Under the pieces are notes generated by a model, which worked only from the letters and a program-made list of their open reading frames with translations, did no database searches and was not told the origin of the DNA. Shown here one piece after another: positions 673 to 30,791 of a DNA stretch of 64,000 nucleotides. This stretch comes from Trypanosoma brucei (taxonomy: Eukaryota), in the NCBI GenBank assembly GCA_000002445.1, contig CH464491.1, positions 4,672,001-4,736,000 on the forward strand, given 5' to 3'. Position 1 is the stretch's first letter, and each line of letters starts with the position of its first letter. Both the position numbers and the translations under genes were made by a program.

Positions 673-777
673 AATCCTCTCAAAACAGAAAATTTTTAAA
701 ATTTTCATATAATGGAGAAAACATCCTTAGAGTTGTAAAATCATAAAATAATACAGAACTTATAAATGCAGAAACAA

Positions 778-5575: not shown

Positions 5576-7986
5576 CCCTGGCGATGCATGCTACCTCAAC
5601 GTGGTTCCAGGGTCCAGTACCCCGTATCATCGGGGGAAGCCAAGAGCCAGCAGCGTTCCTTTCATGGGGAACACTGCTTTGCTCCGGATACGGCATCATA
5701 CAGCACAGGGATCAGCAGTGTCTTGCTGGGACACCGTTTTTCATTTGTCGGTCCCTGGGCACGCGCCAGCGTACCATCAGCAGTATCATCCGCACTAAGA
5801 TGCTGCTGTCCGGTGATGTGGAAGAGAATCCCGGCCCGTCGTTGCGCGGGATGCAGTGGAACTGCGCCGGGCTATCTCAAGGAGAGAGATTAGCACTCCA
5901 CAAAACCCTTGTTGATGAGCGGATCGCCTTTTGTCTGTTGAGCGAGACAAGGATGACGCCTGGAGAGGCGGCTTGCTTTAGCGTTGCTGGCTACCAACAT
6001 CACGAAATAGCTCGTAACTGCAAAGGAGGTGGTGTATCAATACTAGTGAGGGAGGACCTACCAGTCGAGACCGGTATGGCTGTTGTTGGTCGCATTGAAC
6101 AAGTGCATGCAACAATTCACCTTGCACGTGGAACGGCGCTGACTGTCACGTCGGCATACATCCCACCAAAACACACCTTCACGGCAACTGACCTAGATAC
6201 GCTTCTGACGACTGACGGGGCCCAGCTCATCGGTGTAGAGGCTAACGCACACGCGTTGGCATGGGATCGCGCGAGCCCACCAAATACCAAGGGTGAAACC
6301 CTCACACAGTGGTGCATTGACAACCAGTTTCTGGTCTGCAACACTGGTGAGTGCGCCATTTACACACGCCACCACGGGGAGTCCACCCCTGATGTGACAC
6401 TGTCAAGGAATTGTACAGTGTACACGTGGGCATCGCTGTATTCTTCCGATAGCGATCACCATCACATATTTTTCGAGGTTATCGTTGGAGACGACACAGA
6501 TGCACTGAGTTGCCCGCGGCTTCGAAAGCCCATGTACGCATGGCTAAAAGCTGACTGGAGGAATTTCCGTCTCAAGGTTGACGAGCTCTGCAGGAAAATT
6601 GGTAGAGAGAAGAACGTCAACACCCTGGAACAGAAATTGAGCTCCGCCATCTGCATTGCAACGAAGGTCTCCGTCCCCCGTGGCTGCAGAGTAACGCCAC
6701 CACATTGGACACCTGAGCTCGCGAAACTCGATGAAGAGATCGCTGGATGCGGACCCTCCCACCGAAGGGAAAAGTTGGTAGCCACGCGTAAGCAGATCCT
6801 GGACCGTACCACAAAGAAGAGATGGAGCACGCTATGCTCCAGACTTGCGGTGTCAGACCGCTGCAGTTGGCACATTGTCAAGAAGGTATATGCGCCACGA
6901 CCACTAACCACACCGGCTGTACTTGTTGATAACGCGGCCATCACGGACTACCGTCAAGCTAAGAGGTTCATTAAACTGTACTCGTCCCGCGCAAGAAGGC
7001 ACCCCGACTCACACCCACCGGCACCAATAAAGACGATAGCGAGTGAGTTCAGTCCCATCACGATGGCTGAACTACGGAGATCGATCAAACTGCTACCGAG
7101 TGGATCCGCAGCCGGACCTGATTGCTTATACAACGAGGCACTGCAACATCTCGGCAGAACAGCGCTGAATGTTGTTCTGAGGCTATTCAATGAGAGCCTA
7201 CGAACGGGAGTCGTGCCACCTGCATGGAAGACTGGTGTTATCATCCCCATCCTGAAGGCCGCAAAAAAGGGGGAGGACCTCGAATCTTATAGGCCTGTGA
7301 CGCTCACGAGCTGTCTCTGCAAAGTCATGGAACGCATAATTGCCGCGAGACTTAGAGACACTGTTGAGTCCCAGCTGACGCCGCAGCAATCAGGCTTTCG
7401 CCCCGGATGCTCAACGCTCGAACAACTCCTGCACGTCCGCGCTGCCCTCTGCCGTCCAACGCACCAATATCGTACGGGTGCTGTATTCGTTGACTACGAG
7501 AAGGCATTTGATACAGTAGACCACGACAAAATTGCGAGGGAAATGCACAGAATGAAGGTATCATCCCACATTGTGAAGTGGTGCGTATCATTTCTGAGTA
7601 ACCGAACTGGCAGAGTGAGATTCAAGGAGAAGCTTTCCAGAAGCAGAACATTTGAGCGAGGAGTGCCACAAGGAACTGTCCTTGGCCCAATCATGTTCAT
7701 TATTGTCATGAACTCGTTGAGCCAACGCCTTGCAGAAGTGCCGTTACTGCAGCACGGATTCTTTGCAGACGACCTGACGCTACTTGCGAGGCACACAGAG
7801 AGGAATGTCATCAACCACACAGTACAATGCGGTCTCAACGTGGTGTTACAGTGGTCAAAAAAGGACTTTATGTCTGTCAACGTAGCGAAAACAAAGTGCA
7901 CACTCTTCGGGTGTATAGAGCGCCACCCCCTTACATTACAACTGGACGGCGAAAGAATAGGAGCTGACAGGCACCGAAGCTTCTAG
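5576..7986 (+). pseudogene. ingi #1 ORF fragment: N-terminal 2A-like region, AP-endonuclease and RT domains, ended by a 1-bp deletion near 7965
   Basis: ORF 5560..7986. ingi #2 has GACAGGACACCGAAG where ingi #1 has GACAGGCACCGAAG. The RT motifs are present. Confidence 0.8.
5815..5838 (+). other. 2A-like self-cleaving peptide motif DVEENPGP in the ingi N-terminus
   Basis: GATGTGGAAGAGAATCCCGGCCCG encodes DVEENPGP, which fits the DxExNPGP consensus described for the N-terminus of L1Tc/ingi polyproteins. Confidence 0.75.
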
Positions 7987-8012
7987 GAGTAACATTCCAG
8001 TGTCTGCAAGGA

Positions 8013-8930
8013 ATGGCAACACATGCGGCAGAGACAAGACGCAAGATGGACTTCAGACTACTGCAGATAGCAGCCATCTCAGCTTCTACATGGGGGCCAA
8101 GACGACAAGTACTGAGAGCTTTTTATCTAGCACTCGTACAGGCACATACCATGTATGGCATTGAGGTATGGTACTGGGACGCTTCGAAACGAAGTCGCGA
8201 TCTCCTTGCAGCAGCACAACACAAAGCCAGTCGAATCATAGCTGGCATACCGCATGGGACGCGCAAAGAGGACTCTCTGCTGGAAGCAAACCTCCTGCCA
8301 CTCAAGACGACCACTCTTGTGCGCAGCATGAAATTCATGCTGATGTGTGAGTCACGAGGCGGATGTTTGCGGCGCAGTGCTGAGGAAGTATACCACAGAA
8401 AACACCCAGACAGAGTCTTACATTCCCGCATCATGCGGTCTTATCCCCACCTCCGCATTGAGCCACGCGAGCACCCACTAGAGACATCGACGCTCCGCCA
8501 CAGCTGCCGATCACTATTTCACACGCAGATAAAGCCTGCGTGCGCTGATGACTCTGACGGTGTCAAAAGGGAGGCTTCCGAAAAGTGGATTGCACGGCAT
8601 TTTGCACGGAGGGGGAAGGAGCCACCGCGACGAGAGCACTACGAATTGTGGACTGATGGATCCGTGTCCCTCGGTGAGAAGTCCGGAGCAGCTGCCCTGC
8701 TCTATAGAAACAACACGCTGATTTGTGCACCCAAGACCGGAGCAGGGGAACTCTCATGTAGTTACAGAGCGGAATGCGTAGCATTAGAGATAGGACTGCA
8801 ACGGCTGCTGAAATGGCTTCCGGCATACAGAAGCACACCGAGCAGGTTGTCCATCTTCTCTGACTCGCTGTCAATGTTAACAGCACTGCAGACAGGCCTC
8901 CTAGCCGTAACGGACCCAATTCTAAGATGA
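8013..8930 (+). pseudogene. ingi #1 ORF fragment: RT C-terminal part and RNase H
   Basis: ORF 8013..8930 contains the RNase H-like ELWTDGSVSLGEKSGAAALLYRNNTLICAPKTGAGELSCSYRAECVALEIG. Confidence 0.75.
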
Positions 8931-8987
8931 CTATGGAGGCTTCTGCTTCAAGTTCAGAGAAGGAAGATACGTATCCGACTGCAATTT

Positions 8988-10379
8988 GTGTTTGGCCATT
9001 GTGGCGTGAAACGGAATGAGGTTTGCGATGAAATGGCCAAAAAGGCCGCTGATTTACCACAGCTGCGAGATACATGGATCCCCGACATCATTGCTTATGC
9101 GAAGCGAGTGCTTAGGTCGGAAGAAGTCCATGAGAACACTCATAGGTTTGGTATCACGGGCAACCACTTTCCAACAAAACATAAAGAAGAACTGACGAGG
9201 GAAGAAGAAACGGGACTGGCACGGTTTCGGGTTGGGTCTTCAAGGCACTATGGATGGATGTTGCGAAAGATCAACCCGAGTGTGCCTCCACAGTGCCGAT
9301 GGTGCAACCCGCAACATGTAGCGATAGGGCCAACAATACAAACAGTCCCACCTGTTGCGACACGCACTCTTCAGAGAACCTCCGAACCGACCAAATGTAC
9401 GGAATGTGATGCCACATACCAATGCCGCTCGAGTGCTGTAACGCATATGGTAAACAAACACGTCTTTGTGCGAGCTGATGCCCTCCGGAGGATCAAATAC
9501 GGCGATGCAACACCTGCAGTGGACATCCCCCCGGAGCCCCCTCCAGTGGTGGTGATCGTTCCTCTACCATCGAGCACACGAGTCCCGATGAGACCGTAGG
9601 TGCTTTATTGTACCCTCTGTGCCTCCAAATTCGCAGTGCCAGGCCGACTATTACACCACCTTAGAACAATACATGGCATAGGTAGCGGTAGTTGCCGCGT
9701 GAAAAGGGGGCGAGAGAACGAGGACTCAGTGCAAGGAGATGGTAGATCCCCAGCAGCGCCAGCCTCTCAGGATACACGGAAGCTGCCATTTCAATGTGAC
9801 CTGTGCGAGGCGAGCTTCGGTACACGCTCTTCCCTGTCACTACACAAGAAATTCAAACATAAGAGCATGGTGACGGAGGACGGTACCGTGGTGGTGGTGC
9901 AATTCCCTCGTAAGCGTGCCCGTGAGGGAAACGTTGACGCCCCGGGGAAGGGCGAGGTGCAGTGTGGTGTGTGCCAAAAAGTGCTCAGTTGCAGGGACTC
10001 CCTCATCCGACACTGTAAGGCTTTCCACAAAGGTGAGGGAGTCGAGCTTAAATGCAGCAAAAGCACAAAATTGTGTGCCACTGATTCCCCGCATACAAAC
10101 ACATCCATGTTGGTGTACCCGACATGCGGAAGGCAGTGTGCTAACAAAACTGGCCTCACCCTACATCAAAAGAAGATGCACGGTATGAAGGTAGAGCGCG
10201 CTGTTACCAGCCAACGCGGCGACTGCGAAGAAACGTCGCTGCACTTGATGAGCTGTCCCGGTTTGAAGGAGTTACGTGTCAGTTTTGCGGTAGAAGGTGT
10301 GTGTGTGTGCAGGATGTATGTTTTTCCAAAAGGCTGGTGTAGTTTCTCATTGCGGTTGAACGGAGCCGGCCGCAGGTGA
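8988..10379 (+). pseudogene. ingi #1 ORF fragments: C-terminal C2H2 zinc-finger region
   Basis: ORFs 8988..9599 and 9600..10379 carry the C2H2 fingers LYCTLCASKFAVPGRLLHHLRTIHG, FQCDLCEASFGTRSSLSLHKKFKHK, VQCGVCQKVLSCRDSLIRHCKAFHKGE and CGRQCANKTGLTLHQKKMHG. Confidence 0.75.
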
Positions 10380-10837
10380 AGTCCTCACCTAAGGTAACAG
10401 TCATACAACCCACTCTCCCTTCTGCAACTTCCCCCCTTATTGCCGAGTGTGGAGCTAGCAGGAAAAGCACCGGACGCGGGAGTAGTCCAGACACCCTCAG
10501 AGACAGAGGAGGTATGCAGTCAGCAAGCAACAAAAACAGAAAGAGGGAGAGGGGGAGAGAATAATAAACAAATAACAAAAATCAAAACAAAAGGACTGCT
10601 AATTGACATCTTTTGGAGAGTCCGGGGTGGGGGGCTTCTCGCCCCATCTGCTGTATTCTGTTCAACTGCGGAGCTACAACAAAAATTATAGAGGGTGTGT
10701 TAGGATGAATAAAAAAAGGGAGACTCTGCCACAGTCGCCAGACCGATAGCATCTCAGGGCTCTACGGTGATGGCTGATGGCCGCGCCAGTGGGGGGAAAC
10801 TCTCACGAAGGCACGAAGAAAATTCCAAAAAAAAAAA

Positions 10838-11491
10838 TGAGCTGGGCACCGTCAGTTGTCAGAAGCGTATCTAGGTCAGTTGCCGTGAATGTGTATTTTG
10901 GTGGGATGTATCCCGACGTGACAGTCAGCGCCGTTTCACGTGCAAGGTGAAATGTTGCATGCACTTGTTCAATGCGACCAATAACGGCTATACCGGTCTC
11001 GACTGGTAGGTCCCCCCTCACTAGTATTGATACACCACCTCCTTTGCAGTTACGAGCTATTCCGTGATGTTGGTAGCCAGCAACGCTAAAGCAAGCCGCC
11101 CCTCCAGGCGTCATCCTTGTCTCACTCAACAAACAAAAGGCGATCCGCTCATCAACAAGGGTTTTGTGGAGTGCTAATCTCTTTCCTTGAGATAGCCCGG
11201 CGCAGTTCCACTGCATCCCGCGCGACGACGGGCCGGGATTCTCTTCCACATCACCGGACAGCAGCATCTTAGTGCGGATGATACTGCTGATGACACGCTG
11301 GCACGTGCCCAGGGACCGACAAATGAAAAACGGTGTCCCAGCAAGACGCTGCTGATCCCTGTGCTGTATGATGCCGTAGCCGGAGCAAAGCAGTGTTCCC
11401 CATGAAAGGAGCGCTGCTGGCTCTTGGCTTCCCCCGATGATACGGGGTACTGGACCCTGGCACCACGTTGAGGTGGCCGGCATCGCCAGGG
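10838..11491 (-). mobile_element. Inverted ingi 5' segment (ingi nt 1 to ~655), Pr77-like start through DGAQLI
   Basis: ORF 10803..11483(-) encodes MPATSTWCQGPVPRIIGGSQEPAALLSW...KMLLSGDVEENPGPSSRGMQWN...LLTTDGAQLI, which is collinear with the ingi #1 N-terminus. The reverse complement of 11472-11491 is CCCTGGCGATGCCGGCCACC. The 13-nt GGTGCCCAGCTCA sits at 11492 and in inverted orientation at 10838. Confidence 0.8.
11229..11252 (-). other. 2A-like motif DVEENPGP (intact) in the inverted ingi segment
   Basis: The reverse complement encodes GDVEENPGP. Confidence 0.7.
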
Positions 11492-13951
11492 GGTGCCCAG
11501 CTCATCGGTGCAGACGCTAACGCACACGCTTTGGCATGGGATCGCGCGAGCCCACCAAATACCAAGGGTGAAACCCTCACACAGTGGTGCATTGACAACC
11601 AGTTTCTGGTCTGAAACACTGGTGAGTGCACCAGGTACGCGCGCCACCACGGGGAGTCCACCCCTGATGTGACAATATCAAGGAATTGCACAGTGTACAC
11701 GTGGACATCGCTGTATTCTCCCGATAGTGATCACCATCACATATTTTTTGACGTTATCGTTGGAGACGACACAGATGCACTGAGTTGCCCGCGGCTTCGA
11801 AAGCCCATGTACGCATGGCTAAAAGCTGACTGGAGGAATTTCCGTCTCAAGGTTGACGAGCTCTGCAGGAAAATTGGTAGGGAGAAGAACGTCAACACCC
11901 TGGAACAGAAATTGAGCTCCACCATCCGCATTGTGACGAAGGTTTTCGTCCCCCGTGGCTGCAGAGCAACCCCACCACATTGGACACCTGAGCTCGCGAA
12001 ACTCAATGAAGAGATCGCTGGATGCGGACCCTCCCATCGAAGGGAAAAGTTGGTAGCCACGCGTAAGCAGATACTGGACCGTACCACAAAGAAGAGATGG
12101 AGCACGCTATGCTCCAGACTTGCGGTGTCAGACCGCTGCAGTTGGCACATTGTCAAGAAAGTATATGCGCCACGACCACTAACCACACCGGCTGTACTTG
12201 TTGATAACGCGGCCATCACGGACTACCGTCAAGCTGAGAGGTTCATTAAACTGTACTCGTCTTGCGCAAGAAGACACCCCGACTCACACCCACCGGCACC
12301 CATAAAGACGATATAGCGAGTGAGTTCAGTCCCATCACGATGGCTGAACTATGGAGATCGATCAAACTGCTACCGAGTGGATCCGCAGCAAGAACTGATT
12401 GCTTACACAACGAGGCACTGCAACATCTCGGCAGAACAGCGCTGAATGTTGTTCTGAGGCTATTCAATGAGAGCCTACGAACGGGAGTCGTGTCGCCTCC
12501 ATGGAAGACTGGTGTTATCATCCCCATCCTGAAGGCCGGAAAAAAGGCGGAGGACCTCGAATCTTACAGGCCTGTGACGCTCACGAGCTCTCTTCAAAGT
12601 CATGGAGCGCATCATTGCCACGAGGCTTAGAGACATTGTTGAGTTCCAGCTGACGCCGCAGCAATCAGGCTTTCGCCCCGGATGCTCAACGCTCGAACAA
12701 CTCCTGCACGTCCGCGCTGCCCTCTGCCGTCCCACGCACAAATATCGTACGGGTGCTGTATTTGTCGACTACGAGAAGGCATTTGATACAGTAGAACACA
12801 ACAGAATTGCGAGGGAAATGCACAGAATGAAGGTATCACCCCACATTTTGAAGTGGTGCGTATGATTTCCGAGTAACCGAACTGGCAGAGTGAGATTCAA
12901 GGAGAAGCTTTCCAGAAGCAGAACATTTGAGCGAGGAGTGCCACAAGGAACTGTCCTTGGCCCAATCATGTTCATTATTGTCATGAACTCGTTGAGCCAA
13001 CGCCTTGCAGAAGTGCCGTTACTGCAGCACGGATTCTTTGCAGACGACCTGACGCTACTTGCGAGGCACACAGAGAGGAATGTCATCAACCACACAGTAC
13101 AATGCGGTCTCAACGTGGTGTTACAGTGGTCAAAAAAGGACTTTATGTCTGTCAACGTAGCGAAAACAAAGTGCACACTCTTCGGGTGTATAGAGCGCCA
13201 CCCCCTTACATTACAACTGGACGGCGAAAGAATAGGAGCTGACAGGACACCGAAGCTTCTAGGAGTAACATTCCAGTGTCTGCAAGGAATGGCAACACAT
13301 GCGGCAGAGACAAGACGCAAGATGGACTTCAGACTACTGCAGATAGCAGCCATCTCAGCTTCTACATGGGGGCCAAGACGACAAGTACTGAGAGCTTTTT
13401 ATCTAGCACTCGTACAGGCACACACCATGTATGGCATTGAGGTATGGTACTGGGACGCTTCGGAACGAAGTCGCGATCTCCTTTCAGCAGCACAACACAA
13501 AGCCAGTCGAATCATAGCTGGCATACCGCATGGGACGCGCAAAGAGGACTCTCTGCTGGAAGCAAACCTCCTGCCACTCAAGACGACCACTCTTGTGCGC
13601 AGCATGAAATTCATGCTGATGTGTGAGTCACGAGGCGGATGTTTGCGGCGCAGTGCTGAGGAAGTATACCACAGAAAACACCCAGACAGAGTCTTACATT
13701 CCCGCATCATGCGGTCTTATCCCCACCTCCGCATTGAGCCACGCGAGCACCCACTAGAGACATCGACGCTCCGCCACAGCTGCCGACCGCTATTTCACAC
13801 GCAGATAAAGCCTGTGTGCGCTGATGACTCTGACGGTGTCAAAAGGGAGGCTTCCGAAAAGTGGATTGCACGGCATTTTGCACGGAGGGGGAAGAGCGAC
13901 CGCGGCGAGAGCACTAAGAATTGTGAACTGATGGATCCGGTCCCTCGGGAG

Positions 13952-14051
13952 NNNNNNNNNNNNNNNNNNNNNNNNNNNNNNNNNNNNNNNNNNNNNNNNN
14001 NNNNNNNNNNNNNNNNNNNNNNNNNNNNNNNNNNNNNNNNNNNNNNNNNNN
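13952..14051. other. Assembly gap (100 N) inside ingi #2
   Basis: A run of N plus a single N at 14094. Confidence 1.
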
Positions 14052-15865: not shown

Positions 15866-16030
15866 GTCAAATAAACTCCTCCTTGCGGACGTCCGTTATC
15901 TGGTCCGGGCCAGTGTCAGCATCGGTTATGGCTGCCCCTGCCGCCGGGTCTGTCGCGGACAGCAGTGCTAGCGCCGTTGCAGCCGCGGCCAACAGCTGCT
16001 CCGAGCTTCTTGAGCTTTTTACTTCGTTCA
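15866..16030 (-). pseudogene. VSG: VSG-like N-terminal fragment (signal peptide), 54 codons then a stop; it abuts the 3' end of ingi #2
   Basis: The reverse complement encodes MNEVKSSRSSEQLLAAAATALALLSATDPAAGAAITDADTGPDQITDVRKEEFI and a stop. The hydrophobic leader is VSG-like. It lies ~1.7 kb downstream (on the minus strand) of the minus-oriented 70-bp repeats at 17776-18092. Confidence 0.35.
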
Positions 16031-18092: not shown

Positions 18093-18339
18093 AAATAATA
18101 TCCATAAAATAGACAGAATTTTATATTATCACTCATTTACTATACTCCAATATCATGTTATTTTACACTCATATGCCACTTTCATAGAAATATTTATTAT
18201 TCTAAAATTTTTGACATTTTTATCGATAGTGTTAATATATCGAAAAATTTAGCAAACTTTTTCAAATTCTCACAAACGGATAATTTCACTAATTTCATAA
18301 AATGATTCAAAAAGCTTTTACCAAAAATTCTTTAAAATG

Positions 18340-18722
18340 TTATGCTATAATCAAAAAAGCAAGTACAAGAGGAGCCTTGTTAATTACAAATGAGTTGCTT
18401 CCTGTGGTGTTTGTGTTTTTTCCACCATTCTCTACTTTCGCCCCACCTTTTGCTACGCACTCATCTTCCTTATATTCACATTTATCGCTGTTGCACTCGG
18501 TTGCAGTGTTGCCCTTGCATATCTTAGGTTGCTGTTCTGTTGGCTCCTTCTTGGACTTCGCAACTAACTGCTGAGCCATGTGTTGACCTTGCAAATAGCT
18601 TAGTGCTACATCGCCTTGAGGGGTGCCTGCTAGGCTTTTTATTTTCCCTTTCGCTGCATTGTCCCCCTGGCCGTACACAATCTCTTCGTCTTCGACCGCC
18701 TTAACAAATTTGTTTTGGAAGT
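18340..18722 (-). pseudogene. VSG: VSG C-terminal-domain fragment with GPI-anchor signal, cut at its 5' side by the poly(A) end of ingi #3
   Basis: ORF 18340..18792(-) reads ...CKGNTATECNSDKCEYKEDECVAKGGAKVENGGKNTNTTGSNSFVINKAPLVLAFLIIA and a stop. Upstream of ~18722 the same ORF switches to the reverse complement of the ingi 3' end (…GGNLKKNNFQNK from T9 plus AAATTTCCTTCGTGCC). Confidence 0.7.
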
Positions 18723-18724
18723 TG

Positions 18725-21700: not shown

Positions 21701-23186
21701 TGTAACACCACGTTTAGACCGCATTGTAGTGTGTGGTTGATGACATCCCTCTCTGTGTGCCTCGCAAGTAGCGTCAGGTCGTCTGCAAAGAATCCGTGCT
21801 GCAGTAACGGCACTTCTGCAAGGCGTTGGCTCAACGAGTTCATGACAATAATGAACATGATTGGGCCAAGTACAGTTCCTTGTGGCACTCCTCGCTCAAA
21901 TGTTCTGCTGCTGGAAAGCTTCTCCTTGAATCTCACTCTGCCAGTTCGGTTACTCAGAAATGATACGCACCACTTCACAATGTGGGGTGATACCTTCATT
22001 CTGTGCATTTCCCTCGCAATTTTGTCGTGGTCTACTGTATCGAATGCCTTCTCGTAGTCAACGAATACAGCACCCGTACGATATTGGTGCGTGGGGCGGC
22101 AGAGGGCAGTGCGGACGTGCAGGAGTTGTTCGAGCGTTGAGCATCCGTGGCAAAAGCCTGATTGCTGCGTCGTCAGCTGGGACTCAACAGTGTCTCTAAG
22201 CCTCGCGGCAATTATGCGCTCCATGACTTTGCAGAGACAGCTCGTGGGCGTCACAGGCCTGTAAGAATCGAGGTCCTCCGCCTTTTTTCCGGCATTCAGG
22301 ATGGGGATGATAACACCAGTCTTCCATGCAGGCGGCACGACTCCCGTTCGTAGGCTCTCATTGAATAGCCTCAGAACAACATTCAGCGCTGTTCTACCGA
22401 GGTGTTGCAGTGCCTCGTTGTATAAGCAATCAGGTCCGGTTGCGGATCCACTCAGTAGCTGTTTGATCGATCTCCGTAGTTCAGCCATCGTGATGAGACT
22501 GAACTCACTCGCTATCGTCTTTACGGGTGCCGGTGTTGTTAGTGGTCATTGCGCATATACCTTCTTGACAATGTGCCAACTGCAGCGGTCTGACACCGCA
22601 AGTCTGGAGCATAGCGTGCTCCATCTCTTCTTTGTGGTACGGTCCAGGATCTGCTTACGCGTGGCTACCAACTTTTCCCTTCGGTGGGAGGGTCCGCATC
22701 CAGCGATCTCTTCATCGAGTTTCGCGAGCGCAGGTGTCCAATGTGGTGGCGGAGCTCAATTTCTGTTCCAGGGTGTTGACGTTCTTCTCTCTACCAATTT
22801 TCCTGCAGAGCTCGTCAACCTTGAGACGGAAATTCCTCCAGTTAGCTTTTAGCCATGCGTACATGGGCTTTCGAAGCCGCGGGCAACTCAGTGCATCTGT
22901 GTCGTCTCCAACGATAACGTCGAAAAATATGTGATGGTGATCGCTATCGGGAGAATACAGCGATGTCCACGTGTACACTGTGCAATTCCTTGACAGTGTC
23001 ACATCAGGGGTGGACTCCCCGTGGTGGCGCGCGTACCTGGTGCACTCACCAGTGTTGCAGACCAGAAACTGGTTGTCAATGCACCACTGTGTGAGGGTTT
23101 CACCCTTGGTATTTGGTGGGCTCGCTCGATCCCATGCCAACGCGTGTGCGTTAGCGTCTGCACCGATGAGCTGGGCACCGTCAGTC
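18725..23186 (-). mobile_element. ingi #3 (at least 4.46 kb visible), minus strand, degenerate; the 5' ~650 bp is missing or lies in the adjoining 100-N gap
   Basis: The 3' end is read as T9 at 18725-18733. ORFs are 18994..20886(-) 630 aa (RNase H plus C2H2 fingers), 21040..22488(-) RT and 22712..23608(-) endonuclease part (...TDGAQLIGADANAHALAWD). Confidence 0.85.
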
Positions 23187-23286
23187 NNNNNNNNNNNNNN
23201 NNNNNNNNNNNNNNNNNNNNNNNNNNNNNNNNNNNNNNNNNNNNNNNNNNNNNNNNNNNNNNNNNNNNNNNNNNNNNNNNNNNNNN
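23187..23286. other. Assembly gap (100 N)
   Basis: A run of N. Confidence 1.
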
Positions 23287-23484: not shown

Positions 23485-23990
23485 CCCTGGGGGGGCCGGC
23501 CACCTCAACGTGGTGCCAGGGTGCAGTACCCCGTATCATCGGGGGAAGCCAAGAGCCAACAGCGTTCCTTTCATGGGGAACACTGCTGTGCTCCGGATAC
23601 GGCGTCATACAGCACAGGGATCAGCAGCGTCTTGCTGGGACACCGGTCTTCATTTGTCGGTCCCTGGGCACGTGGCAAGCGTGCCATCGGCACTATCATC
23701 CGCACTAAAATGCTGCTGTCTGGTGATGTGGACCTCAAAAAAAGGATTGCTAATTGACAACTTTTGGAGAGTCTAGGGTGGGGGGCTTCTCGCCCCATCT
23801 GCTGTATTCCGTTCATATGCGGAAATACAACAAAAATTATAGAGGGTGTGTTAGGATGAATGAAAAAGGGAGACTCTGCCACAGTCGCCAGACCGATAGC
23901 ATCTCAGGGCTCTACGGTGATGGCTGATGGCCGCGCCAGTGAGGGGAAACTCCCACGAAGGCACGAAGACAACTTTTAAAAAAAAAAAAA
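23485..23990 (+). mobile_element. RIME (truncated ingi derivative: ~250 bp of 5' end joined to ~250 bp of 3' end)
   Basis: The 5' end is CCCTGGGGGGGCCGGCCACCTCAACGTGGTGCCAGGGTGCAGTACCCCGTATCATCGGGGG. The internal junction sits in the 2A region (…CTGTCTGGTGATGTGGA then CCTCAAAAAAAGGATTGCTAATTGACAAC). The 3' end is ...GGCACGAAGACAACTTTT followed by A13. Confidence 0.85.
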
Positions 23991-24773
23991 GTGAATGTAC
24001 AACGAATCGCACACTCAAAATAATGACTTTCCATCAAATAAATAGTGAACTGGACACCTCGGCTTCTTGCACAGAAACCTTCATACAATCGTATCTGTGC
24101 GCACCTTATGTAACAAATGGTAGAGAAAAATTAGGAGAATACATGAAAAGGTGAAAGGGGCGTCGACGATTAAGAAAAAAAAATATTTCGGGCACATCAC
24201 TCAGTGTAAAATATTAAACACAATATGTGACATCCATCTGGTAGAAATGAAAACCGTAAACGACACGCTCTGTAGGAAATTACGGTTAGGCAGCTAAGTA
24301 TTAATATCTGATGTAAACAATGTTGCAATGTTTTCATTAACACATATGTGCTTCTACAAAAAATGCATATCGTATCTAATGTTAACATCGTTAAGTAATA
24401 AAAAAAACGAATTAAAGTAACCAAATTTTAAAAAGGGATCATACGCTCGTTGTTAACTGTGCTTACTGCCGAGAGGTTAATTTTGATAGAGTCCACAACC
24501 CTCCTAACACAGAGTTATACCGTGACATCACCTGCCGTGATTATTTGTTTCCACACTCTTTTGTTGATGTTTTCCCCGTTTACTCTTCTCCTTCCTCTCT
24601 TTTATTGATTTCCCACAGCCGCTCTTTCATGATTTACATCCATGTCGGTTACTTCCCCTCCCCGCAATATTTTCAATAGCTAACATAGCGACGGTATTAA
24701 CATTAAATTGCACAAGGTAATGTTTCATACTGTTGGCCCAAAATAAATGAACATATTTGCGATCTTCCTCACT

Positions 24774-25545
24774 TCATTTGCCCGCTGTATCGTTGCACAA
24801 TTGTTGGCGTCTCATCTTTCTGACGGCAACATGCTGAGCACAAATAACTCCCCACCCAAATTCATTCATAAAATTTCCCAAAAACATATCCCTATTCGCA
24901 TCACATGTTAGAAGGACAGGATTCTCGAGCATATTAAGGGCTGTTCCTGTTTTGTTATCATGTGATCCAGCAGTTTGGAATTGCAACATCACCACCGTTT
25001 ATTTTTCGTTGATTTTCAACTTCGGTGGTTGTGTCGCAATCCACAACAAACAAGGTATCAAATAGTGGGAAAATGGGTGGGAACCCGTAAAGTTGCATGG
25101 TGTGTGGAGAGTTGATTGTTCCCTCATGGATATTTGGAAGGCGCTGTGCTTTACCGAAGTTCAGGAAAATATCGCTCAGGCGGTTCAACACGCTGACATC
25201 CTGCATCGTTTCCTGTTTCCACTCCGCGGTTGCGGGCAATGACCCTATCATGTCAATAAAAGGAAATAATACCCTGGGAAAATCGAAAGCACTTGCGGCA
25301 TCACCTTCAAAACACAAGACAAAACTGATCTGTATATGAGTGACTCTCCTCACACAATGTTGTCGTGCAACGTCTCTGCGCGACTGGAAAGTTACCACCC
25401 TCAATGCGGATTCAAAGTGCAGCGTGCACACATACGTTTCGGAATCTCCTGTACGATAGATGCGACCAAGGTTGATGAATTTATGCAGCAGCAGTCTTCC
25501 AATCCATTTGCCATATGGGCGCAACGTTCCAAGATACAACACAGA
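24774..25545 (-). pseudogene. C-terminal fragment of an unidentified protein-coding gene (not VSG or ingi), frameshifted, truncated on its 5' side by the ingi #4 insertion
   Basis: ORF 24958..25701(-) reads …YVCTLHFESALRVVTFQSRRDVARQHCVRRVTHIQISFVLCFEGDAASAFDFPRVLFPFIDMIGSLPATAEWKQETMQDVSVLNRLSDIFLNFGKAQRLPNIHEGTINSPHTMQLYGFPPIFPLFDTLFVVDCDTT… and continues in another frame as ORF 24774..24995(-). I cannot assign a family from sequence alone. Confidence 0.35.
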
Positions 25546-25546
25546 C

Positions 25547-25566
25547 ATATATATATATATATATAT
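25547..25566. repeat. (AT)10 dinucleotide microsatellite
   Basis: ATATATATATATATATATAT. Confidence 0.9.
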
Positions 25567-25640
25567 GCATGCATGAACTCCTATAAAATATGCGGTAACA
25601 GGCAATACTCTGGCATCATGCTTTAGTTTGTGAAGGAGAA

Positions 25641-28600
25641 TTTTTTTTTTTANAATTTTCTTCGTGCCTTCGTGGGAGTTTCCCCCCACTGGCGCGGCCA
25701 TCAGCCATCACTGTAGATCCCTGAGATGCTATCGATCTGGCGACTGTGGCAGAGTCTCCATTTTTTTTTCGGCCTAACACACTCTCTATAATTTTTGTTG
25801 TAGCTCCGCAGTTGAACGGAATACAGCAGATGGGGCGAGAAGTCTCCCACCCCAGACTCTCCCAAAGATGTCAATTAGCAATCCTTTTGTTTTGATTTTT
25901 GTTATTCGTTTATTATTCTCTTCCCCTATTTCTGTTTCTGTTGCTTGTTGACTGTATACCCCCTCTGTCTCTGAGGGTGTCTGGACTATTCCTGCGTCCG
26001 GTGCTTTTCCTGCTGGCTCCACACTCGGCAATAAGGGGGGAAGTTGCAGAAGGGAAAGTGGGTTGTATGACTTTTACCTTAGGTGAGGACTTCACCTGTG
26101 GCCGGCTCCGTTCAACCGCAATGAGAAACTGTGCCAGCCTTTTAGAGAAACATACATCCTGCACACACACACCTTCTACCGCAAACCTGACACGTAACTC
26201 CTTCAAACCGGGACAGCTCATCAGGTGCAGCGACGTTTCTTCGCAGTCGCCGCGTTGGCTCGTAACAGTGCGCTCTGCCCCCATACCGTGCATCTTCTTT
26301 TGATGTAGGGTGAGGCCAGTTTTGCTAGCACACTGCCTTCCGCATGTCTGGCACACCAACATGGATGTGTTTGTATGCGGGGAATCAGTGGCACCCAATT
26401 TTGTGATTTTGCTGCATTTAAGCTCGACTCCCTCACCTTAGTGGAAAGCCTTACAGTGTCGGATGAGGGAGGCCCCGCAACTGAGCACTTTTTTGGCACA
26501 CACCACACTGCACCTCGCCCTTCCCCGGGACGTCAACGTTTCCCTCACGGGCACGCTTACGAGGGAATTGCACCAACACCACGGTACCGTCCTCCGTCAC
26601 TATGCTTTTATGTTTGAATTTCTTGTGTAGTGACAGGGAAGAGCGTGTACCGAAGCTCGCCTCGCACAGGTCACATTGAAACGGCAGCTTCCGTGTATCC
26701 TGAGAGGCTGGCGCTGCTGGGGCTCTACCATCTCCTTGCACTGAGTCTTCGTTTTCTCGCCCCCTTTTCACGCGGCAACTACCGCTGCCTATGCCATGTA
26801 TTGTTCTAAGGTGGTGTAATAGTCGGCCTGGCACTGCGAATTTGTAGGCACAGAGGGTACAATGAAGCACCTGCGGTCTCATCGGGACTCGTGTGCTCGA
26901 TGGTAGAGGAACGATCGCCACCACTGGAAGGGGCTCCGGGGGGATGTCCACTGCAGGTCTTGCATCGCCGTATTTGATCCTCCGGAGGGCATCAGCTCGC
27001 ACAAAGCCATGTTTGTTTACCATGTGCGTTACAGCACTCGAGCGGCATTGGTATGTGGCATCACATTCCGTACATTTGGTGGATTCGGAGGTTCTCTGAA
27101 GAGTGCGTGTCGCAACAGGTGTGGTTGTTTGTATTGTTGGCCCTATCGCTGCATGTTGCGGGTTACACCATCGGCACTGTGGAGGCACACTCGGGTTGAT
27201 CTTTCGCAACATCCATCCATAGTGTCTTGAAGACCCAACCCGAAAGCGTGCCAGTGCCGTTTCTTCTTCCCTCGTCAGTTCTTCCTTATTTTTTGTTGGA
27301 AAGTGGTTGCCTGTAATACCAAACCTATGAGTGTTCTCATGGACTTCTTCCGACCTAAGCACTCGCTTCGCGTAAGCAATGATGTCCGTTATCCATGTGT
27401 CTCGCAACTGTGGTAAATCAGCGGCCTTTTTGGCCATGTCATCACAAACCTCATTCCGTTTCACGCCACAATGGCCAAATACAAATTGCAGTCGGATACG
27501 CATCTTCCTTCTCTGAACTTGAAGCAGAAGCCTCCATAGTCGTCTCAGAATTGGGTCCGTTACTGCTAGGGGGCCTGTCTGCAGTGCTGTTAACATTGAC
27601 AGCGAGTCAGAGAAGATGGACAACCTGCTCGGTGTGCTTCTGTATGCCGGAAGCCATTTCAGCAGCCGTTGCAGTCCTATCTCTAATGCTACGCATTCCG
27701 CTCTGTAACTGCATGAGAGTTCCCCTGCTCCTGTCTTGGGTGCACAAATCAGCGTGTTGTTTCTATAGAGCAGGGCAGCTGCTCCGGACTTCTCACCGAG
27801 GGACACGGATCCATCAGTCCACAATTCGTGGTGCTCTCGCCGCGGTGGCTCCTTCCCCCTCCGTGCAAAATTCCGTTCAATCCACTTTTCGGAAGCCTCC
27901 CTTTTGACATCGTCAGGGTCATCAGCGCACACAGGCTTTATCTGCGTGTGAAATATCGGTCGGCAGCTGTGGCGGAGCGTCGATGTCTCTAGTGGGTGCT
28001 CGCGTGGCTCAATGCGGAGGTGGGGGTAGGCCAGCATGATGCGGGAATGTAAGACTCGGCTTGGGTGTTTGCTGTGGTATACTTTTTCAGCACTGCGCCG
28101 AAAAACATCGGCCTCGTGACTCACACATCAGCATGAATTTCATGCTGCGCACAAGAGTGGTCGTCTTGAGTGGCAGGAGGTTTGCTTCCAGCAGAGAGTC
28201 CTCTTTGCGCGTCCCATGTGGTATGCCGGCTATGATGCGACTGGCTTTGTGTTGTGCTGATGCAAGGAGGTCGCGACTTCGTTCCGAAGCGTCCCAGTAC
28301 CATACCTCAATGCCATACATGGTGTGTGCCTGTACGAGTGCTAGATAAAAAGCTCTCAGTACTTGTCGTCTTAGCCCCCATGTAGAAGCTGAGATGGCTG
28401 CTATCTGCAGTAGTCTGAAATCCATCTTGCGTCTCGTTTTGGCCGCATGTGTTGCCATCCCTTGCAGACTCTGGAATGTTACTCCTAGAAGCTTCGGTGT
28501 CCTGTCAGCTCCTATTCTTTCGCCGTCCAGTTGTAATGTAAGGGGGTGACGCTCTATACACCCGAAGAGTGTGCACTTTGTTTTCGCTACGTTGACAGAC

Positions 28601-30791
28601 ATGAAGTACTCTTTTGACCACCGTAACACCACGTTTAGACCGCATTGTAGTGTGTGGTTGATGACATCCCTCTCTGTGTGCCTCGCAAGTAGCGTCAGGT
28701 CGTCTGCAAAGAATCCGTGCTGCAGTAACGGCACTTCTGCAAGGCGTTGGCTCAACGAGTTCATGACAATAATGAACATGATTGGGCCAAGTACAGTTCC
28801 TTGTGGCACTCCTCGCTCAAATGTTCTGCTGCTGGAAAGCTTCTCCTTGAATCTCACTCTGCCAGTTCGGTTACTCAGAAATGATACGCACCACTTCACA
28901 ATGGGGTTATACCTTCATTCTGTGCATTTCCCTCGCAATTTTGTCGTGGTCTACTGTATCAAATGCCTTCTCGTAGTCAACGAATACAGCACCCGTACGA
29001 TATTGGTGCGTGGGACGGCAGAGGGCAGCGCGGATGTGCAGGAGTTGTTCGAGCGTTGAGCATCCGTGGCAAAAGCCTGATTGCTGCGTCGTCAGCTGGG
29101 ACTCAACAGTGTCTCTAAGCCTCGCGGCAATTATGCGCTCCATGACTTTGCAGAGACAGCTCGTGGGCGTCACAGGCCTGTAAGAATCGAGGTCCTCCGC
29201 CTTTTTTCCGGCATTCAGGATGGGGATGATAACACCAGTCTTCCATGCAGGCGGCACGACTCCCGTTCGTAGGCTCTCATTGAATAGCCTCAGAACAACA
29301 TTCAGCGCTGTTCTACCGAGGTGTTGCAGTGCCTCGTTGTATAAGCAATCAGGTCCGGCTGCGGATCCACTCGGTAGCAGTTTGATCGATCTCCGTAGTT
29401 CAGCCATCGTGATGAGACTGAACTCACTCGCTATCGTCTTTATTGGTGCCGGTGTTGTTAGTGGTCATTGCGCATATACCTTCTTGACAATGTGGCAACT
29501 GCAGCGGTCTGACACCGCAAGTCTGGAGCATAGCGTGCTCCATCTCTTCTTTGTGGTACGGTCCAGGACCTGCTTACCCGTGGCTACCAACTTTTCCCTT
29601 CGGTAGGAGGGTCCGCATCCAGCGATCTATTCATAGAGTTTCGCGAGCTCAGGTGTCCAATGTGGTGGCGTTACTCTGCAGCCACGGGGGACGGAGACCT
29701 TCGTTGCAATGCGGATGGCGGAGCTCAATTTCTGTTCCAGGGTGTTGACGTTCTTCTCTCTACCAATTTTCCTGCAGAGCTCGTCAACCTTGAGACGGAA
29801 ATTCCTCCAGTCAGCTTTTAGCCATGCGTACATGGGCTTTCGAAGCCGCGGGCAACTCAGTGCATCTGTGTCGTCTCCAACGATAACCTCGAAAAATATG
29901 TGATGGTGATCGCTATCGGAAGAATACAGCGATGCCCACGTGTACACTGTACAATTCCTTGACAGTGTCACATCAGGGGTGGACTCCCCGTGGTGGCGTG
30001 TGTAAATGGTGCACTCACCAGTGTTGCAGACCAGAAACTGGTTGTCAATGCACCACTGTGTGAGGGTTTCACCCTTGGTATTTGGTGGGCTCGCGCGATC
30101 CCATGCCAACCCGTGTGCGTTAGCGTCTGCACCGATGAGAGCTGGGCACCGTCAGTCGTCAGAAGCGTATCTAGGTCATTTGCCGTGAAGGTGTGTTTTG
30201 GTGGGATGTATGCCGACGTGACAGTCAGCGCCGTTCCACGTGCAAGGTGAATTGTTGCATGCACTTGTTCAATGCGACCAACAACGGCTATACCGGTCTC
30301 GACTGGTAGGTCCCCCCTCACTAGTATTGATACACCACCTCCTTTGCAGTTACGAGCTATTCCGTGATGTTGGTAGCCAGCAACGCTAAAGCAACCCGCC
30401 CTTTCAGGCGTCATCCTTGTCTCACTCAACAAACAAAAGGCGATCCGCTCATCAACAAGGGTTTTGTGGAGTGCTAATCTCTTTCCTTGAGATAGCCCGG
30501 CGCAGTTCCACTGCATCCCGCGCAACGACGGGCTGGGATTCTCTTCCATATCACCGGACAGCAGCATCTTAGTGCGGATGATACTGCTGATGGCACGCTG
30601 GCACGTGCCCAGGGACCGACAAATGAAAAACGGTGTCCCAGCAAGACGCTGCTGATCCCTGTGCTGTATGATGCCGTAGCCGGAGCACAGCAGTGTTCCC
30701 CATGAAAGGAATGCTGCTGGCTCTTGCTTTCCCCGATGATACGGGGTACTGGACCCTGGAACCACGTTGAGGTGGCCGGCATCGCCAGGGA
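25641..30791 (-). mobile_element. ingi #4, full length (~5.15 kb), minus strand, degenerate
   Basis: T11 at 25641-25651 precedes the reverse-complemented ingi 3' end. The 5' end is CGCCAGGG at 30784-30791 (reverse complement CCCTGGCGATGCCGGCCACC). ORFs are 25913..26398, 26451..28124 (557 aa), 28087..28899, 28907..29407, 29627..30109 and 29968..30891(-). A 2-bp insertion sits near 30147. Confidence 0.9.
30529..30552 (-). other. Mutated 2A-like motif in ingi #4: DMEENPSP (the Gly of NPGP replaced by Ser)
   Basis: The reverse complement GACATGGAAGAGAATCCCAGCCCG encodes DMEENPSP in ORF 29968..30891(-). Confidence 0.7.

What the first reader, a model, noticed from the sequence alone, without database searches (positions are those of the whole stretch)
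5576..30791. Convergent ingi copies form multi-kb inverted repeats at the switch point between two divergent VSG arrays
ingi #1 and #2 are on the plus strand and ingi #3 and #4 on the minus strand, with ~90-95% visible identity. The arrangement is therefore a pair of convergent ~4.5-5 kb inverted repeats: #2 versus #3 separated by only ~3 kb, and #1 versus #4 further out. On the left the VSGs are all minus-strand (778-5520, 15866-18722). On the right all nine are plus-strand (35288-62183). The retroelement block thus sits exactly at the array orientation switch. Long inverted ingi pairs are natural substrates for hairpin transcripts and for siRNA production; in T. brucei siRNAs are known to derive largely from ingi and SLACS. 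They are also substrates for inversion or deletion by homologous recombination. That could explain both the strand switch and the VSG fragments stranded between #2 and #3.
Basis: partly seen in the sequence, partly recalled or inferred. Interest (0 to 1): 0.5.

Follow-up and report, generated by a model that had tools for sequence, protein, structure and literature searches.

The report
Inverted ingi retrotransposons in VSG array
Four broken copies of the trypanosome retrotransposon ingi do lie as inverted repeats beside the point where two silent surface-antigen gene arrays change direction, but this is the ordinary, already documented pile-up of retroelements at such sites, and parts of the picture are shaped by assembly gaps.

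Summary
The core observation holds. Two plus-strand ingi (5576-10837, 10838-15768) face two minus-strand ingi (18725-23186, 25641-30790). Pairwise identity is 95-97%, and the inner 1.7-kb arms are 98.5% identical across a 2,956-nt spacer.

Several details need correcting:
- ingi #3 "ends" at a 100-N scaffold gap, and ingi #2 contains a second gap.
- The first 654 nt of #2 are inverted relative to the rest of the element.
- A RIME, a tyrosine-recombinase-like pseudogene and a fifth ingi were not part of the description.
- The VSG orientation switch lies between 18.7 and 33.65 kb. ingi #1 and #2 therefore sit inside the minus-strand array, not at the switch.
- The "VSG" between #2 and #3 is two VSG fragments plus the intergenic 70-bp repeats.

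No target-site duplications survive, either own or swapped. The flanks are not contiguous in either orientation. The four copies are block-wise mosaics. So recombination has scarred the locus, but nothing shows that an ingi-ingi inversion created the switch.

The siRNA/hairpin idea cannot be tested here and follows from known biology. Published surveys already report that T. brucei retroposons concentrate in subtelomeres and strand-switch regions.

Verdict: real, ordinary, low interest. The most interesting by-product is a twin-priming-like 5' inversion in ingi #2.

The parts
600..3787 (-). Minus-strand VSG cassette: B-type VSG pseudogene, 3'UTR motif at 658-671, upstream 70-bp repeats at 3643-3787
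   Evidence: Pfam VSG_B hit in ORF 1645-2313(-); 14-mer match; 70-bp repeat; conceptual translation
3767..5520 (-). Minus-strand A-type-like VSG pseudogene with its own start and signal peptide near 5520. ingi #1 begins 55 nt upstream of that start codon.
   Evidence: Conceptual translation shows MNRTRQT*KLLLVAIVVVTAALATT... followed by VSG-like N-terminal sequence. A 180-aa excerpt of the reading gave no Pfam hit, so the VSG call rests on reading the translation.
5576..10837 (+). ingi #1: full length (5,262 nt), A11 tail, coding region broken into at least 4 ORF pieces
   Evidence: Self-BLAST; end sequences; Pfam endonuclease, RT and zinc-finger hits; ORF list
10838..11491 (-). Inverted 5' segment of ingi #2: reverse complement of ingi positions 1-654, directly abutting the poly(A) tail of #1
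   Evidence: Self-BLAST rows 5576-6230 vs 11491-10837 and 10839-11491 vs 30139-30790; junction sequences
11492..15768 (+). Direct part of ingi #2 (ingi position 642 to the A10 tail). It contains a 100-N scaffold gap at 13952-14051, which replaces about 440 nt of element. The 13-nt GGTGCCCAGCTCA is duplicated in inverted orientation at 10838-10850 and 11492-11504.
15769..16029 (-). 5' fragment (about 87 codons, one frameshift) of an A-type VSG, truncated by the 3' end of ingi #2
   Evidence: Sequence and reading: MNEVKSSRSSEQLLAAAATALALLSATDPAAGAAITDADTGPDQITDV.KEEF/YLTELQKELTAG...; GC content rises to 53-55% here
17777..18120 (-). 70-bp repeats in minus orientation, belonging to the cassette whose VSG start is at 16029
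   Evidence: Tandem repeat finder; low-stringency self-BLAST to all other 70-bp blocks
18340..18724 (-). C-terminal fragment of another VSG (ends ...TGSNSFVINKAPLVLAFLIIA*), truncated by the poly(A) end of ingi #3
   Evidence: Translation; tblastn hit to the C-terminus of the intact VSG at 44916-46340; DNA similarity to other VSG 3' ends
18725..23186 (-). ingi #3, assembled from its poly(A) end up to ingi position 634, where the contig ends
   Evidence: Pfam RT and RNase H hits
23187..23286 (.). 100-N scaffold gap hiding the 5' end of ingi #3 and its flank
23485..23990 (+). RIME element: the 5' and 3' halves of ingi joined, with an A13 tail
   Evidence: Self-BLAST rows 5590-5822 vs 23499-23732 and 10585-10837 vs 23737-23988; end sequences
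23991..25640 (.). 1.65 kb of unidentified unique sequence between the RIME and ingi #4
   Evidence: No Pfam hit in any of six frames; no repeat elsewhere in the window
25641..30790 (-). ingi #4: full length (5,150 nt), A11 tail, coding region broken
31188..32109 (-). Tyrosine-recombinase-like pseudogene (2 frameshifts), probably a remnant of a VIPER-type retroelement, about 400 nt from the 5' end of ingi #4
   Evidence: 48-59% identity over the whole length of a 319-aa T. theileri protein and to T. grayi proteins; sub-threshold matches to Pfam Phage_integrase (E 0.069) and to PDB integrase 5c6k (E 0.1)
33655..33908 (+). First plus-oriented 70-bp repeat block. It marks the start of the right-hand VSG array, whose first VSG is at 35288-36582.
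   Evidence: Pfam Trypan_glycop hits in 35288-35794 and 35800-36582
62183..64000 (-). ingi #5 (3' 1.8 kb, runs off the window). Its poly(A) end abuts a plus-strand VSG that lacks its C-terminus.

Best explanation
This is a retroelement-rich patch in a silent subtelomeric VSG array of Trypanosoma brucei.

Degenerate ingi copies, a RIME and a tyrosine-recombinase element remnant accumulated by separate insertions in and next to the 15-kb VSG-free interval where a minus-strand array and a plus-strand array diverge. The ++/-- orientation, and hence the inverted repeats, is an incidental result of several insertions landing close together.

After insertion the copies exchanged sequence with each other or with other ingi by gene conversion or crossing-over. 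At least one event, at the #1/#2 junction, removed or rearranged flanking DNA.

Shown here: the anatomy, the degeneracy of the copies, the lack of target-site duplications, the mosaic relationships and the non-contiguous flanks. Inferred: the order of events. The locus can in principle give double-stranded ingi RNA through convergent read-through, as can any ingi transcribed from both strands, but nothing marks it as a special source.
For: Element identity and layout:
- No copy has the single 1,657-aa ORF of a functional ingi (ORF lists; the reference figure is in PMC3447711).
- The organism is T. brucei: the closest VSG homologues are T. brucei VSGs, at 89% identity.
- The switch interval 18725-33654 contains no VSG. 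It holds ingi #3, a gap, a RIME, 1.65 kb of unknown sequence, ingi #4 and a recombinase-like pseudogene.

Rearrangement scars:
- No own or swapped 12-bp target-site duplication exceeds chance. The best match is 8/12, and about 7% of random flank pairs reach that.
- Two-against-two variable sites form blocks. #1=#4 and #2=#3 at ingi positions 784-902 and 3076-4872 (33 sites). #1=#2 and #3=#4 at positions 1321-2985 (34 sites). Only 4 sites show the third pattern.
- The tandem's left flank lies 55 nt upstream of one VSG start. Its right flank lies inside codon ~87 of another VSG.

Published background:
- 60.1% of T. brucei retroposons are subtelomeric, and strand-switch regions have the highest retroposon density (PMC2323293).
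- Retroelements accumulate in strand-switch regions (PMC4748587).
- ingi occur within subtelomeric VSG arrays (PMC3553974).
- ingi and RIME recombine and cause rearrangements (PMC2854126).
- Tandem ingi are frequent (PMC3820030).
Against: - The mirror pairs (#1,#4) and (#2,#3) share derived sites in the 3' 1.8 kb relative to #5 (10 and 13 sites). That is not what fully independent insertions of unrelated masters would give. It suggests local arm-to-arm exchange, or insertions from two shared masters.
- The jump in #2-#3 identity, from about 94-96% to 98.5%, coincides with a scaffold gap. Part of the pattern could therefore reflect the assembly.
- No expression or small-RNA data could be examined, so a special role is not excluded.
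Confidence: 0.75

Rival explanations
1. Homologous recombination between oppositely oriented ingi copies inverted a block of the array. That event created the VSG strand switch and stranded the VSG fragments between #2 and #3.
For: - Inverted kb-long repeats at 95-99% identity are adequate substrates.
- The mosaic pattern can be produced by reciprocal exchange between a plus and a minus copy, for example #2 with #4.
- Target-site duplications are missing.
- ingi-mediated rearrangements are documented (PMC2854126).
Against: - The predicted signature is that the 5' flank of one element matches the 3' flank of its inverted partner. This is not seen for any pair.
- The spacer between #2 and #3 has the same orientation as the array on its left.
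- Flipping the spacer does not make either VSG fragment contiguous with anything next to #1, #2 or #3.
- The switch interval starts only at 18725, so #1 and #2 are not at it.
- The mosaic could equally pre-date insertion, or arise by non-crossover gene conversion.
- The left boundary of any large inversion lies outside the window.
Confidence: 0.1
2. The convergent pair, especially #2 and #3 with their 3-kb spacer, is transcribed through and folds into a long hairpin. This would make the locus a preferential siRNA source compared with solitary ingi.
For: - The arms are 1.7 kb at 98.5% identity, with exact complementary runs of up to 483 nt.
- ingi 5' ends carry an internal promoter in this clade (PMC4748587), and the copies point at each other.
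Against: - Those seven repeats are 99-100% identical non-retroposon pairs.
- ingi siRNAs are already abundant, and evenly sense and antisense along the whole element, without invoking hairpins.
- VSG pseudogene arrays gave no small-RNA enrichment in procyclic cells.
- #2's promoter-bearing 5' end is inverted, so it points away from #3.
- No expression data are available here.
- Most 24-mers of these copies are not even unique within the window.
Confidence: 0.12
3. Part of the arrangement is an assembly artefact. The three contigs (1-13951, 14052-23186, 23287-64000) were joined inside repeats, so ingi #2 may be a chimera of two elements, or the inverted 5' piece of #2 may be a mis-join.
For: - There are two 100-N gaps, both inside ingi copies, and single N bases at 14094 and 25653.
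- #2's similarity to #3 changes exactly across the first gap.
- Contig 2 ends at ingi position 634, only 8 nt from #2's inversion junction at position 642.
Against: - The inner inverted pair and its spacer lie wholly within one contig (14052-23186).
- Element coordinates continue collinearly across the first gap (position ~3100 to ~3540). Flipping contig 2 would break that.
- Both novel junctions of #2 lie inside contig 1 and share no repeat that could cause a mis-join.
- The inverted piece is not identical to any other copy in the window (95.9-96.8%).
Confidence: 0.12
4. The block is the remnant of one large inverted (palindromic) duplication of an ingi-ingi tandem, so that #4 is the copy of #1 and #3 the copy of #2.
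For: The mirror pairs are sisters in the 5' block (positions 784-902) and the 3' block (positions 3076-4872), and share derived sites relative to #5.
Against: - The central 1.7 kb groups same-strand neighbours instead.
- #1 and #2 abut directly, whereas #3 and #4 are separated by at least 2.4 kb of unrelated sequence plus a RIME.
- #3 has the canonical sequence where #2 has its inversion junction.
- No flanking sequence is mirrored.
Confidence: 0.05

Closest known systems
Tbingi/RIME non-LTR retrotransposons (ingi clade) in T. brucei subtelomeres and strand-switch regions
   Same: - Length about 5.2 kb, with RIME-like ends.
- CCCTGGCG... 5' end and a poly(A) tail.
- Domain order endonuclease, RT, RNase H, zinc finger.
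- Tandem arrangement.
- Location in a subtelomeric VSG array and at a strand switch.
   Different: - All copies here are coding-dead.
- None keeps the 12-bp target-site duplication.
- The tandem pair is not separated by a target-site duplication, as published tandems are.
- One copy has an inverted 5' end.
siRNA-producing long inverted repeats of T. brucei (IR1-IR7; Tschudi et al. 2012, PMC3447711)
   Same: kb-scale inverted arms separated by a few kb; potential to form fold-back RNA.
   Different: - The published repeats are 99-100% identical and are not retroposons, and their small RNAs were measured.
- Here the arms are 95-97% identical overall (98.5% over the inner 1.7 kb) and belong to a multi-copy family.
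- No small-RNA evidence exists for this locus.
Twin-priming 5' inversions of mammalian LINE-1 (Ostertag and Kazazian 2001; cited from my own knowledge, not read here)
   Same: In ingi #2, the inverted segment and the direct segment are adjacent in element coordinates (1-654 and 642-end). There is a short (13-nt) duplication at the junction and a normal poly(A) end.
   Different: - The element is an ingi-clade retroposon in a kinetoplastid.
- The inverted cDNA reaches element position 1.
- No flanking target-site duplication is present.
- The 5' junction is the poly(A) tail of a neighbouring ingi.
- The held literature has no paper with both 'ingi' and 'twin priming'.
VIPER / DIRS-like tyrosine-recombinase retroelements of trypanosomes
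   Same: A recombinase-like reading frame is conserved at 48-59% identity with T. theileri and T. grayi proteins, degenerate in T. brucei. VIPER is reported in T. brucei as an extinct element (PMC6681497).
   Different: Only sub-threshold profile matches to integrases were found. No reverse transcriptase or RNase H part was found. No VIPER reference sequence was available to compare.

Membership tests
Tbingi (ingi-clade non-LTR retrotransposon) | About 5.25-kb element whose first and last ~250 nt correspond to the two halves of RIME | tested here: met
   #1 is 5,262 nt and #4 is 5,150 nt. The RIME at 23485-23990 aligns to the first ~250 nt and the last ~250 nt of the ingi copies. Reference lengths are in PMC3447711.
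Tbingi (ingi-clade non-LTR retrotransposon) | Endonuclease, reverse transcriptase, RNase H and C2H2 zinc-finger domains, in that order | tested here: met
   Pfam Exo_endo_phos, RVT_1, RNase_H and zf-C2H2 hits in successive ORF pieces of the copies
Tbingi (ingi-clade non-LTR retrotransposon) | 3' poly(A) tail and a conserved 5' signature of about 79 nt | tested here: met
   Tails of A6 to A13 at every 3' end. The 5' ends of #1, #2 (inverted), #4 and the RIME share CCCTGGCGATGCCGGCCACCTCAACGTGG.... The published consensus itself was not available for comparison.
Tbingi (ingi-clade non-LTR retrotransposon) | Single long ORF of 1,657 aa (required for a functional copy) | tested here: not met
   The longest ORF piece is 808 aa, and every copy is split into several pieces. 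These are degenerate copies.
Tbingi (ingi-clade non-LTR retrotransposon) | 12-bp target-site duplication flanking the element | tested here: not met
   The best anchored match for any own or swapped flank pair is 8/12, which about 7% of random pairs reach. The 12-bp rule is from PMC3820030.
Silent subtelomeric VSG array cassette | VSG N-terminal domain, C-terminal/GPI signal, upstream 70-bp repeats and a conserved 3'UTR motif, all in one orientation per array | tested here: met
   Pfam VSG_B, Trypan_glycop and Trypan_glycop_C hits; 70-bp blocks in minus orientation at 3643-3787 and 17777-18120 and in plus orientation at eight sites from 33655 to 55535; 14-mer matches
siRNA-generating inverted repeat locus (Tschudi IR class) | Long inverted repeat with essentially identical arms | tested here: inconclusive
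   Arms are 95-97% identical overall and 98.5% over the inner 1.7 kb. The published class is 99-100% identical.
siRNA-generating inverted repeat locus (Tschudi IR class) | Dicer-dependent 24-26-nt RNAs mapping to the arms and spacer | not testable with these tools
   No read data are accessible. Only 9-37% of 24-mers in the copies are unique even within the window, against 99% in the spacer.
Twin-priming 5' inversion (LINE-type) | Inverted 5' segment and direct 3' segment that are contiguous in element coordinates, with a small duplication or deletion at the junction | tested here: met
   Reverse complement of positions 1-654 followed by positions 642-end; 13-nt duplication GGTGCCCAGCTCA
Twin-priming 5' inversion (LINE-type) | Target-site duplication flanking the whole inverted and direct insertion | tested here: not met
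   The 5' flank is the A11 tail of ingi #1 and the 3' flank is GTCCGCTGCCAG. An A-run duplication hidden in the tails cannot be excluded.
Tyrosine-recombinase retroelement (VIPER-like) | Tyrosine recombinase catalytic domain | tested here: inconclusive
   Pfam Phage_integrase E 0.069, below the curated cut-off; PDB integrase 5c6k E 0.1. The homologues are annotated 'trans-sialidase' by their sources.

The most novel reading that the evidence does not exclude
The convergent ingi pair works as a double-stranded-RNA and siRNA-generating boundary between two divergent silent VSG arrays. Its inner arms would be kept alike by arm-to-arm gene conversion (98.5% against about 96% elsewhere), and it would contribute to silencing or insulation of the arrays.
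Probability: 0.06. Interest if true: 0.55.

Novelty: already known. Interest (0 to 1): 0.18.

Why it matters
It would matter if inverted ingi pairs were shown to drive array inversions or to act as small-RNA-producing boundaries. That would link retroelement layout to the evolution and silencing of the antigen gene archive that underlies trypanosome immune evasion.

As it stands, the locus is one more example of a documented pattern: retroposons enriched in subtelomeres and strand-switch regions, and recombining there.

The practical value of this check is threefold. It gives a corrected map of the locus. It warns that two element "ends" are really assembly gaps. It also turns up a possible twin-priming insertion, which would extend a LINE-1 integration mechanism to a very distant eukaryote.

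Tried and rejected
1. Synteny in other strains. Exact-protein look-ups for two intact VSGs of the window found no encoding contig. The DNA collections on offer are bacterial, viral or metagenomic. The inversion could therefore not be tested by comparison.

2. Target-site duplication test for own and swapped flanks. Nothing exceeded chance, so the test is inconclusive rather than negative. A gapped resemblance around #4 (TTCCCCT-CAC against TTCTCCTTCAC) and one around the #1/#2 tandem (GTC-TTAGCCA against GTCCGCTGCCA) were judged not significant.

3. The idea that the #1/#2 tandem simply splits one VSG. Rejected, because the VSG to the left has its own start codon and signal peptide at about 5520, and the fragment to the right is the start of a different VSG.

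4. Palindromic duplication of an ingi tandem. Rejected, because the central block, the unequal spacing and the junctions do not fit it.

5. Identity of 23287-23484, 23991-25640 and 32110-33650. No Pfam hit was found: six frames were searched for 23989-25640 and the longer ORFs for 30.8-34 kb. 23287-23484 and 23991-25640 have no repeat elsewhere in the window. They remain unidentified.

6. Rfam scan of the whole window at gathering thresholds. No hits, so no curated ribozyme or other RNA family was detected at the ingi 5' ends.

It was replaced by ORF pieces and X-masked translations.

8. Bringaud et al. 2002 (PMC118050) could not be read.

Full report
**What is in the sequence**

The window is Trypanosoma brucei subtelomeric DNA. 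Its intact VSG reading frames carry Pfam VSG domains. The closest database relatives are T. brucei VSGs, at 89% identity.

Self-comparison shows five copies of one ~5.2-kb element:
- #1 at 5576-10837 (+)
- #2 at 10838-15768 (+)
- #3 at 18725-23186 (-)
- #4 at 25641-30790 (-)
- #5 from 62183 to the window end (-)

There is also a 0.5-kb RIME (+) at 23485-23990, which matches the two ends of the long element. The ORF pieces of the long copies carry endonuclease, reverse transcriptase, RNase H and C2H2 zinc-finger domains. Every 3' end has an A6-A13 tail, and the 5' ends share the CCCTGGCG... start. These are ingi elements.

None is coding-competent. The longest piece is 808 aa, against the 1,657-aa ORF of a functional copy (PMC3447711). 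Overall pairwise identity is 95.3-96.8%.

**Checking the observation**

The ++/-- layout is real, and so is the 2,956-nt spacing of the inner pair. The inner arms (14066-15767 against 20425-18725) are 98.5% identical, with exact runs of up to 483 nt. Five points differ from the finding.

1. The window contains two 100-N scaffold gaps, at 13952-14051 inside #2 and at 23187-23286. The contig simply stops at ingi position 634. The true 5' end and flank of #3 are unknown.

2. Positions 10838-11491 of #2 are the reverse complement of ingi positions 1-654. They are followed at 11492 by ingi position 642 onward.

3. The "VSG" at 15866-18722 is not a gene. Read on the minus strand, the spacer holds:
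   - a VSG C-terminal fragment ending in a GPI signal (18724->18340);
   - its 3' region;
   - 70-bp repeats (18120->17777);
   - an AT-rich upstream region;
   - the first ~87 codons of a different A-type VSG (16029->15769).

   Both fragments are cut off by ingi poly(A) ends.

4. 70-bp repeats are minus-oriented at 3643-3787 and 17777-18120. They are plus-oriented at eight sites from 33655 to 55535. The orientation switch therefore lies between 18725 and 33654. ingi #1 and #2 are embedded in the minus-strand array, and only #3 and #4 lie in the switch interval.

5. That 15-kb interval contains no VSG at all. Besides #3, the RIME and #4 it holds 1.65 kb of unidentified sequence. It also holds, at 31188-32109 (-), a frameshifted reading frame 48-59% identical to 319-aa-class proteins of T. 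theileri and T. grayi. That frame shows sub-threshold integrase similarity, so it is probably a VIPER-type remnant.

**Did recombination between the inverted copies make the switch?**

A crossover between a plus and a minus element inverts what lies between them and swaps flanks. The 5' flank of one element should then match the 3' flank of its partner.

I compared every available 5' flank (#1, #4, RIME) with every 3' flank (#1-#5, RIME), allowing small offsets. The best score was 8/12. About 7% of random flank pairs from the window reach that score. So no target-site duplication is recognisable, whether own or swapped. The test neither supports nor excludes an inversion.

Flank content is more informative. 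The left flank of the #1/#2 tandem lies 55 nt upstream of the start codon of a complete VSG pseudogene. The right flank lies inside codon ~87 of another VSG. About 3 kb that should lie between them is missing: the rest of that VSG, its 3' region, the 70-bp repeats and the upstream region. Flipping the #2-#3 spacer does not restore continuity for either fragment. The spacer also already has the orientation of the array to its left.

The locus has therefore been rearranged, with a deletion at least. Nothing ties the strand switch to an ingi-ingi inversion.

**Sequence exchange between copies**

Sites where the four copies split two against two fall into clean blocks:
- #1=#4 and #2=#3 at positions 784-902 and 3076-4872 (33 sites);
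- #1=#2 and #3=#4 at positions 1321-2985 (34 sites);
- only 4 sites show the third pattern.

All four combinations of outer-block and central-block type are present, so recombination has occurred somewhere in the ancestry of these copies. With #5 as a fifth copy, (#2,#3) share 13 derived sites and (#1,#4) share 10 in the 3' 1.8 kb.

This fits local gene conversion or exchange between oppositely oriented copies. It fits equally well insertion of pre-existing mosaic masters. Without a genome-wide ingi set the two cannot be separated.

One caveat applies. The rise in #2-#3 identity coincides with the first scaffold gap.

**The siRNA idea**

It cannot be tested with sequence. The relevant background is published:
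- ingi-family elements give 52% of TbAGO1-bound small RNAs, spread evenly along the element with similar sense and antisense counts.
- Seven non-retroposon inverted repeats of 99-100% identity also give small RNAs, including from the region between their arms.
- VSG pseudogenes showed no enrichment in procyclic cells (all from PMC3447711).
- H3.V loss raises siRNAs at all these classes (PMC4721609).

A convergent ingi pair could give double-stranded RNA by read-through, but so can any ingi transcribed from both sides. In addition, #2's promoter-bearing 5' end points the wrong way. Only 9-37% of 24-mers in these copies are unique even within the window, against 99% in the spacer. The only informative target for read mapping is therefore the spacer and the novel junctions.

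**Comparison with what is known**

- 60.1% of T. brucei retroposons are subtelomeric, and strand-switch regions have the highest retroposon density (PMC2323293).
- Accumulation of retroelements in strand-switch regions is treated as established (PMC4748587).
- ingi are known to lie within VSG arrays (PMC3553974).
- ingi and RIME are known to recombine and cause rearrangements (PMC2854126).
- Tandem ingi are frequent (PMC3820030).

With several ingi clustered together, oppositely oriented neighbours are expected. For four independently oriented elements, 14 of the 16 orientation patterns contain at least one inverted pair (my inference). The finding is therefore a correct description of an ordinary, already documented kind of locus.

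**By-product: the 5' end of ingi #2**

The structure is: A11 tail of #1, then the reverse complement of positions 654..1, then positions 642..end with an A10 tail. The 13-nt GGTGCCCAGCTCA is present at both ends of the inverted piece. This is the arrangement that twin priming produces in mammalian LINE-1: inversion of the upstream part plus a short junction duplication (my own knowledge, not read here).

Arguments that this was one event:
- Two independent events ending within 13 nt of each other in a 5.2-kb element would be a coincidence of under about 1%.
- Both junctions lie inside one contig and share no repeat that could cause a mis-join.

Arguments against a textbook case:
- There is no flanking target-site duplication, unless it is an A-run hidden in the tails.
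- The flanks are non-contiguous, which would need an accompanying target deletion.
- Contig 2 ends only 8 nt from the same element position. I read this as the assembler stumbling over conflicting reads, but it keeps an artefact possible.

No held paper contains both "ingi" and "twin priming". I rate twin priming at about 45% likely.

**Verdict**

- Novelty: already known.
- Interest: low.

Noticed in passing
window 10838-11504: The first 654 nt of ingi #2 are inverted and followed by positions 642-end. A 13-nt duplication (GGTGCCCAGCTCA) sits at both ends, and the piece directly abuts the poly(A) tail of ingi #1 with no target-site duplication. This is the signature of twin priming known from LINE-1. 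The held literature has no paper linking it to ingi.
   Followed up: partly
window 13952-14051 and 23187-23286 (also single N at 14094 and 25653): There are two 100-N scaffold gaps, both inside ingi copies. The second hides the 5' end of ingi #3. The contig ends at ingi position 634, 8 nt from the position of #2's inversion junction.
   Followed up: yes
window 23485-23990 (+): A RIME element with an A13 tail lies between ingi #3 and #4, in the opposite orientation to both. It has no recognisable target-site duplication.
   Followed up: partly
window 31188-32109 (-): A frameshifted reading frame is 48-59% identical to proteins of T. theileri and T. grayi that their sources call 'trans-sialidase'. 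Those proteins have no sialidase domain and weak integrase similarity. It is probably a tyrosine-recombinase (VIPER-like) retroelement remnant, and the source names look like misannotations.
   Followed up: partly
window 23287-23484 and 23991-25640: GC-rich 198 nt and 1.65 kb of unique sequence flank the RIME. The 1.65 kb gave no Pfam hit in any frame (the 198 nt was not scanned), and neither has a repeat elsewhere in the window. Both remain unidentified.
   Followed up: partly
window 61654-64000: A fifth ingi (-) starts at 62183. Its poly(A) end cuts off the C-terminus of the last plus-strand VSG. As with #1 and #2, the element is antisense to the array it sits in.
   Followed up: partly
ingi positions 784-902, 1321-2985 and 3076-4872 across copies #1-#4: There is a block-wise mosaic. 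The mirror pairs (#1,#4) and (#2,#3) are alike in the outer blocks. Same-strand neighbours (#1,#2) and (#3,#4) are alike in the central 1.7 kb. This fails the four-gamete test, so the lineages have recombined.
   Followed up: partly
window 5576-6230 versus 10837-11491: Because #2's 5' end is inverted, ingi #1 is itself bracketed by a 655-nt inverted repeat (95.9% identity, 4.6 kb apart).
   Followed up: no
window 44916-46340 (+) and 47579-48946 (+): There are two apparently intact VSG reading frames, A-type of 474 aa and B-type of 455 aa, among mostly pseudogenic neighbours. Neither exact protein is in the contig index. The B-type is 89% identical to an EATRO1125 VSG.
   Followed up: partly
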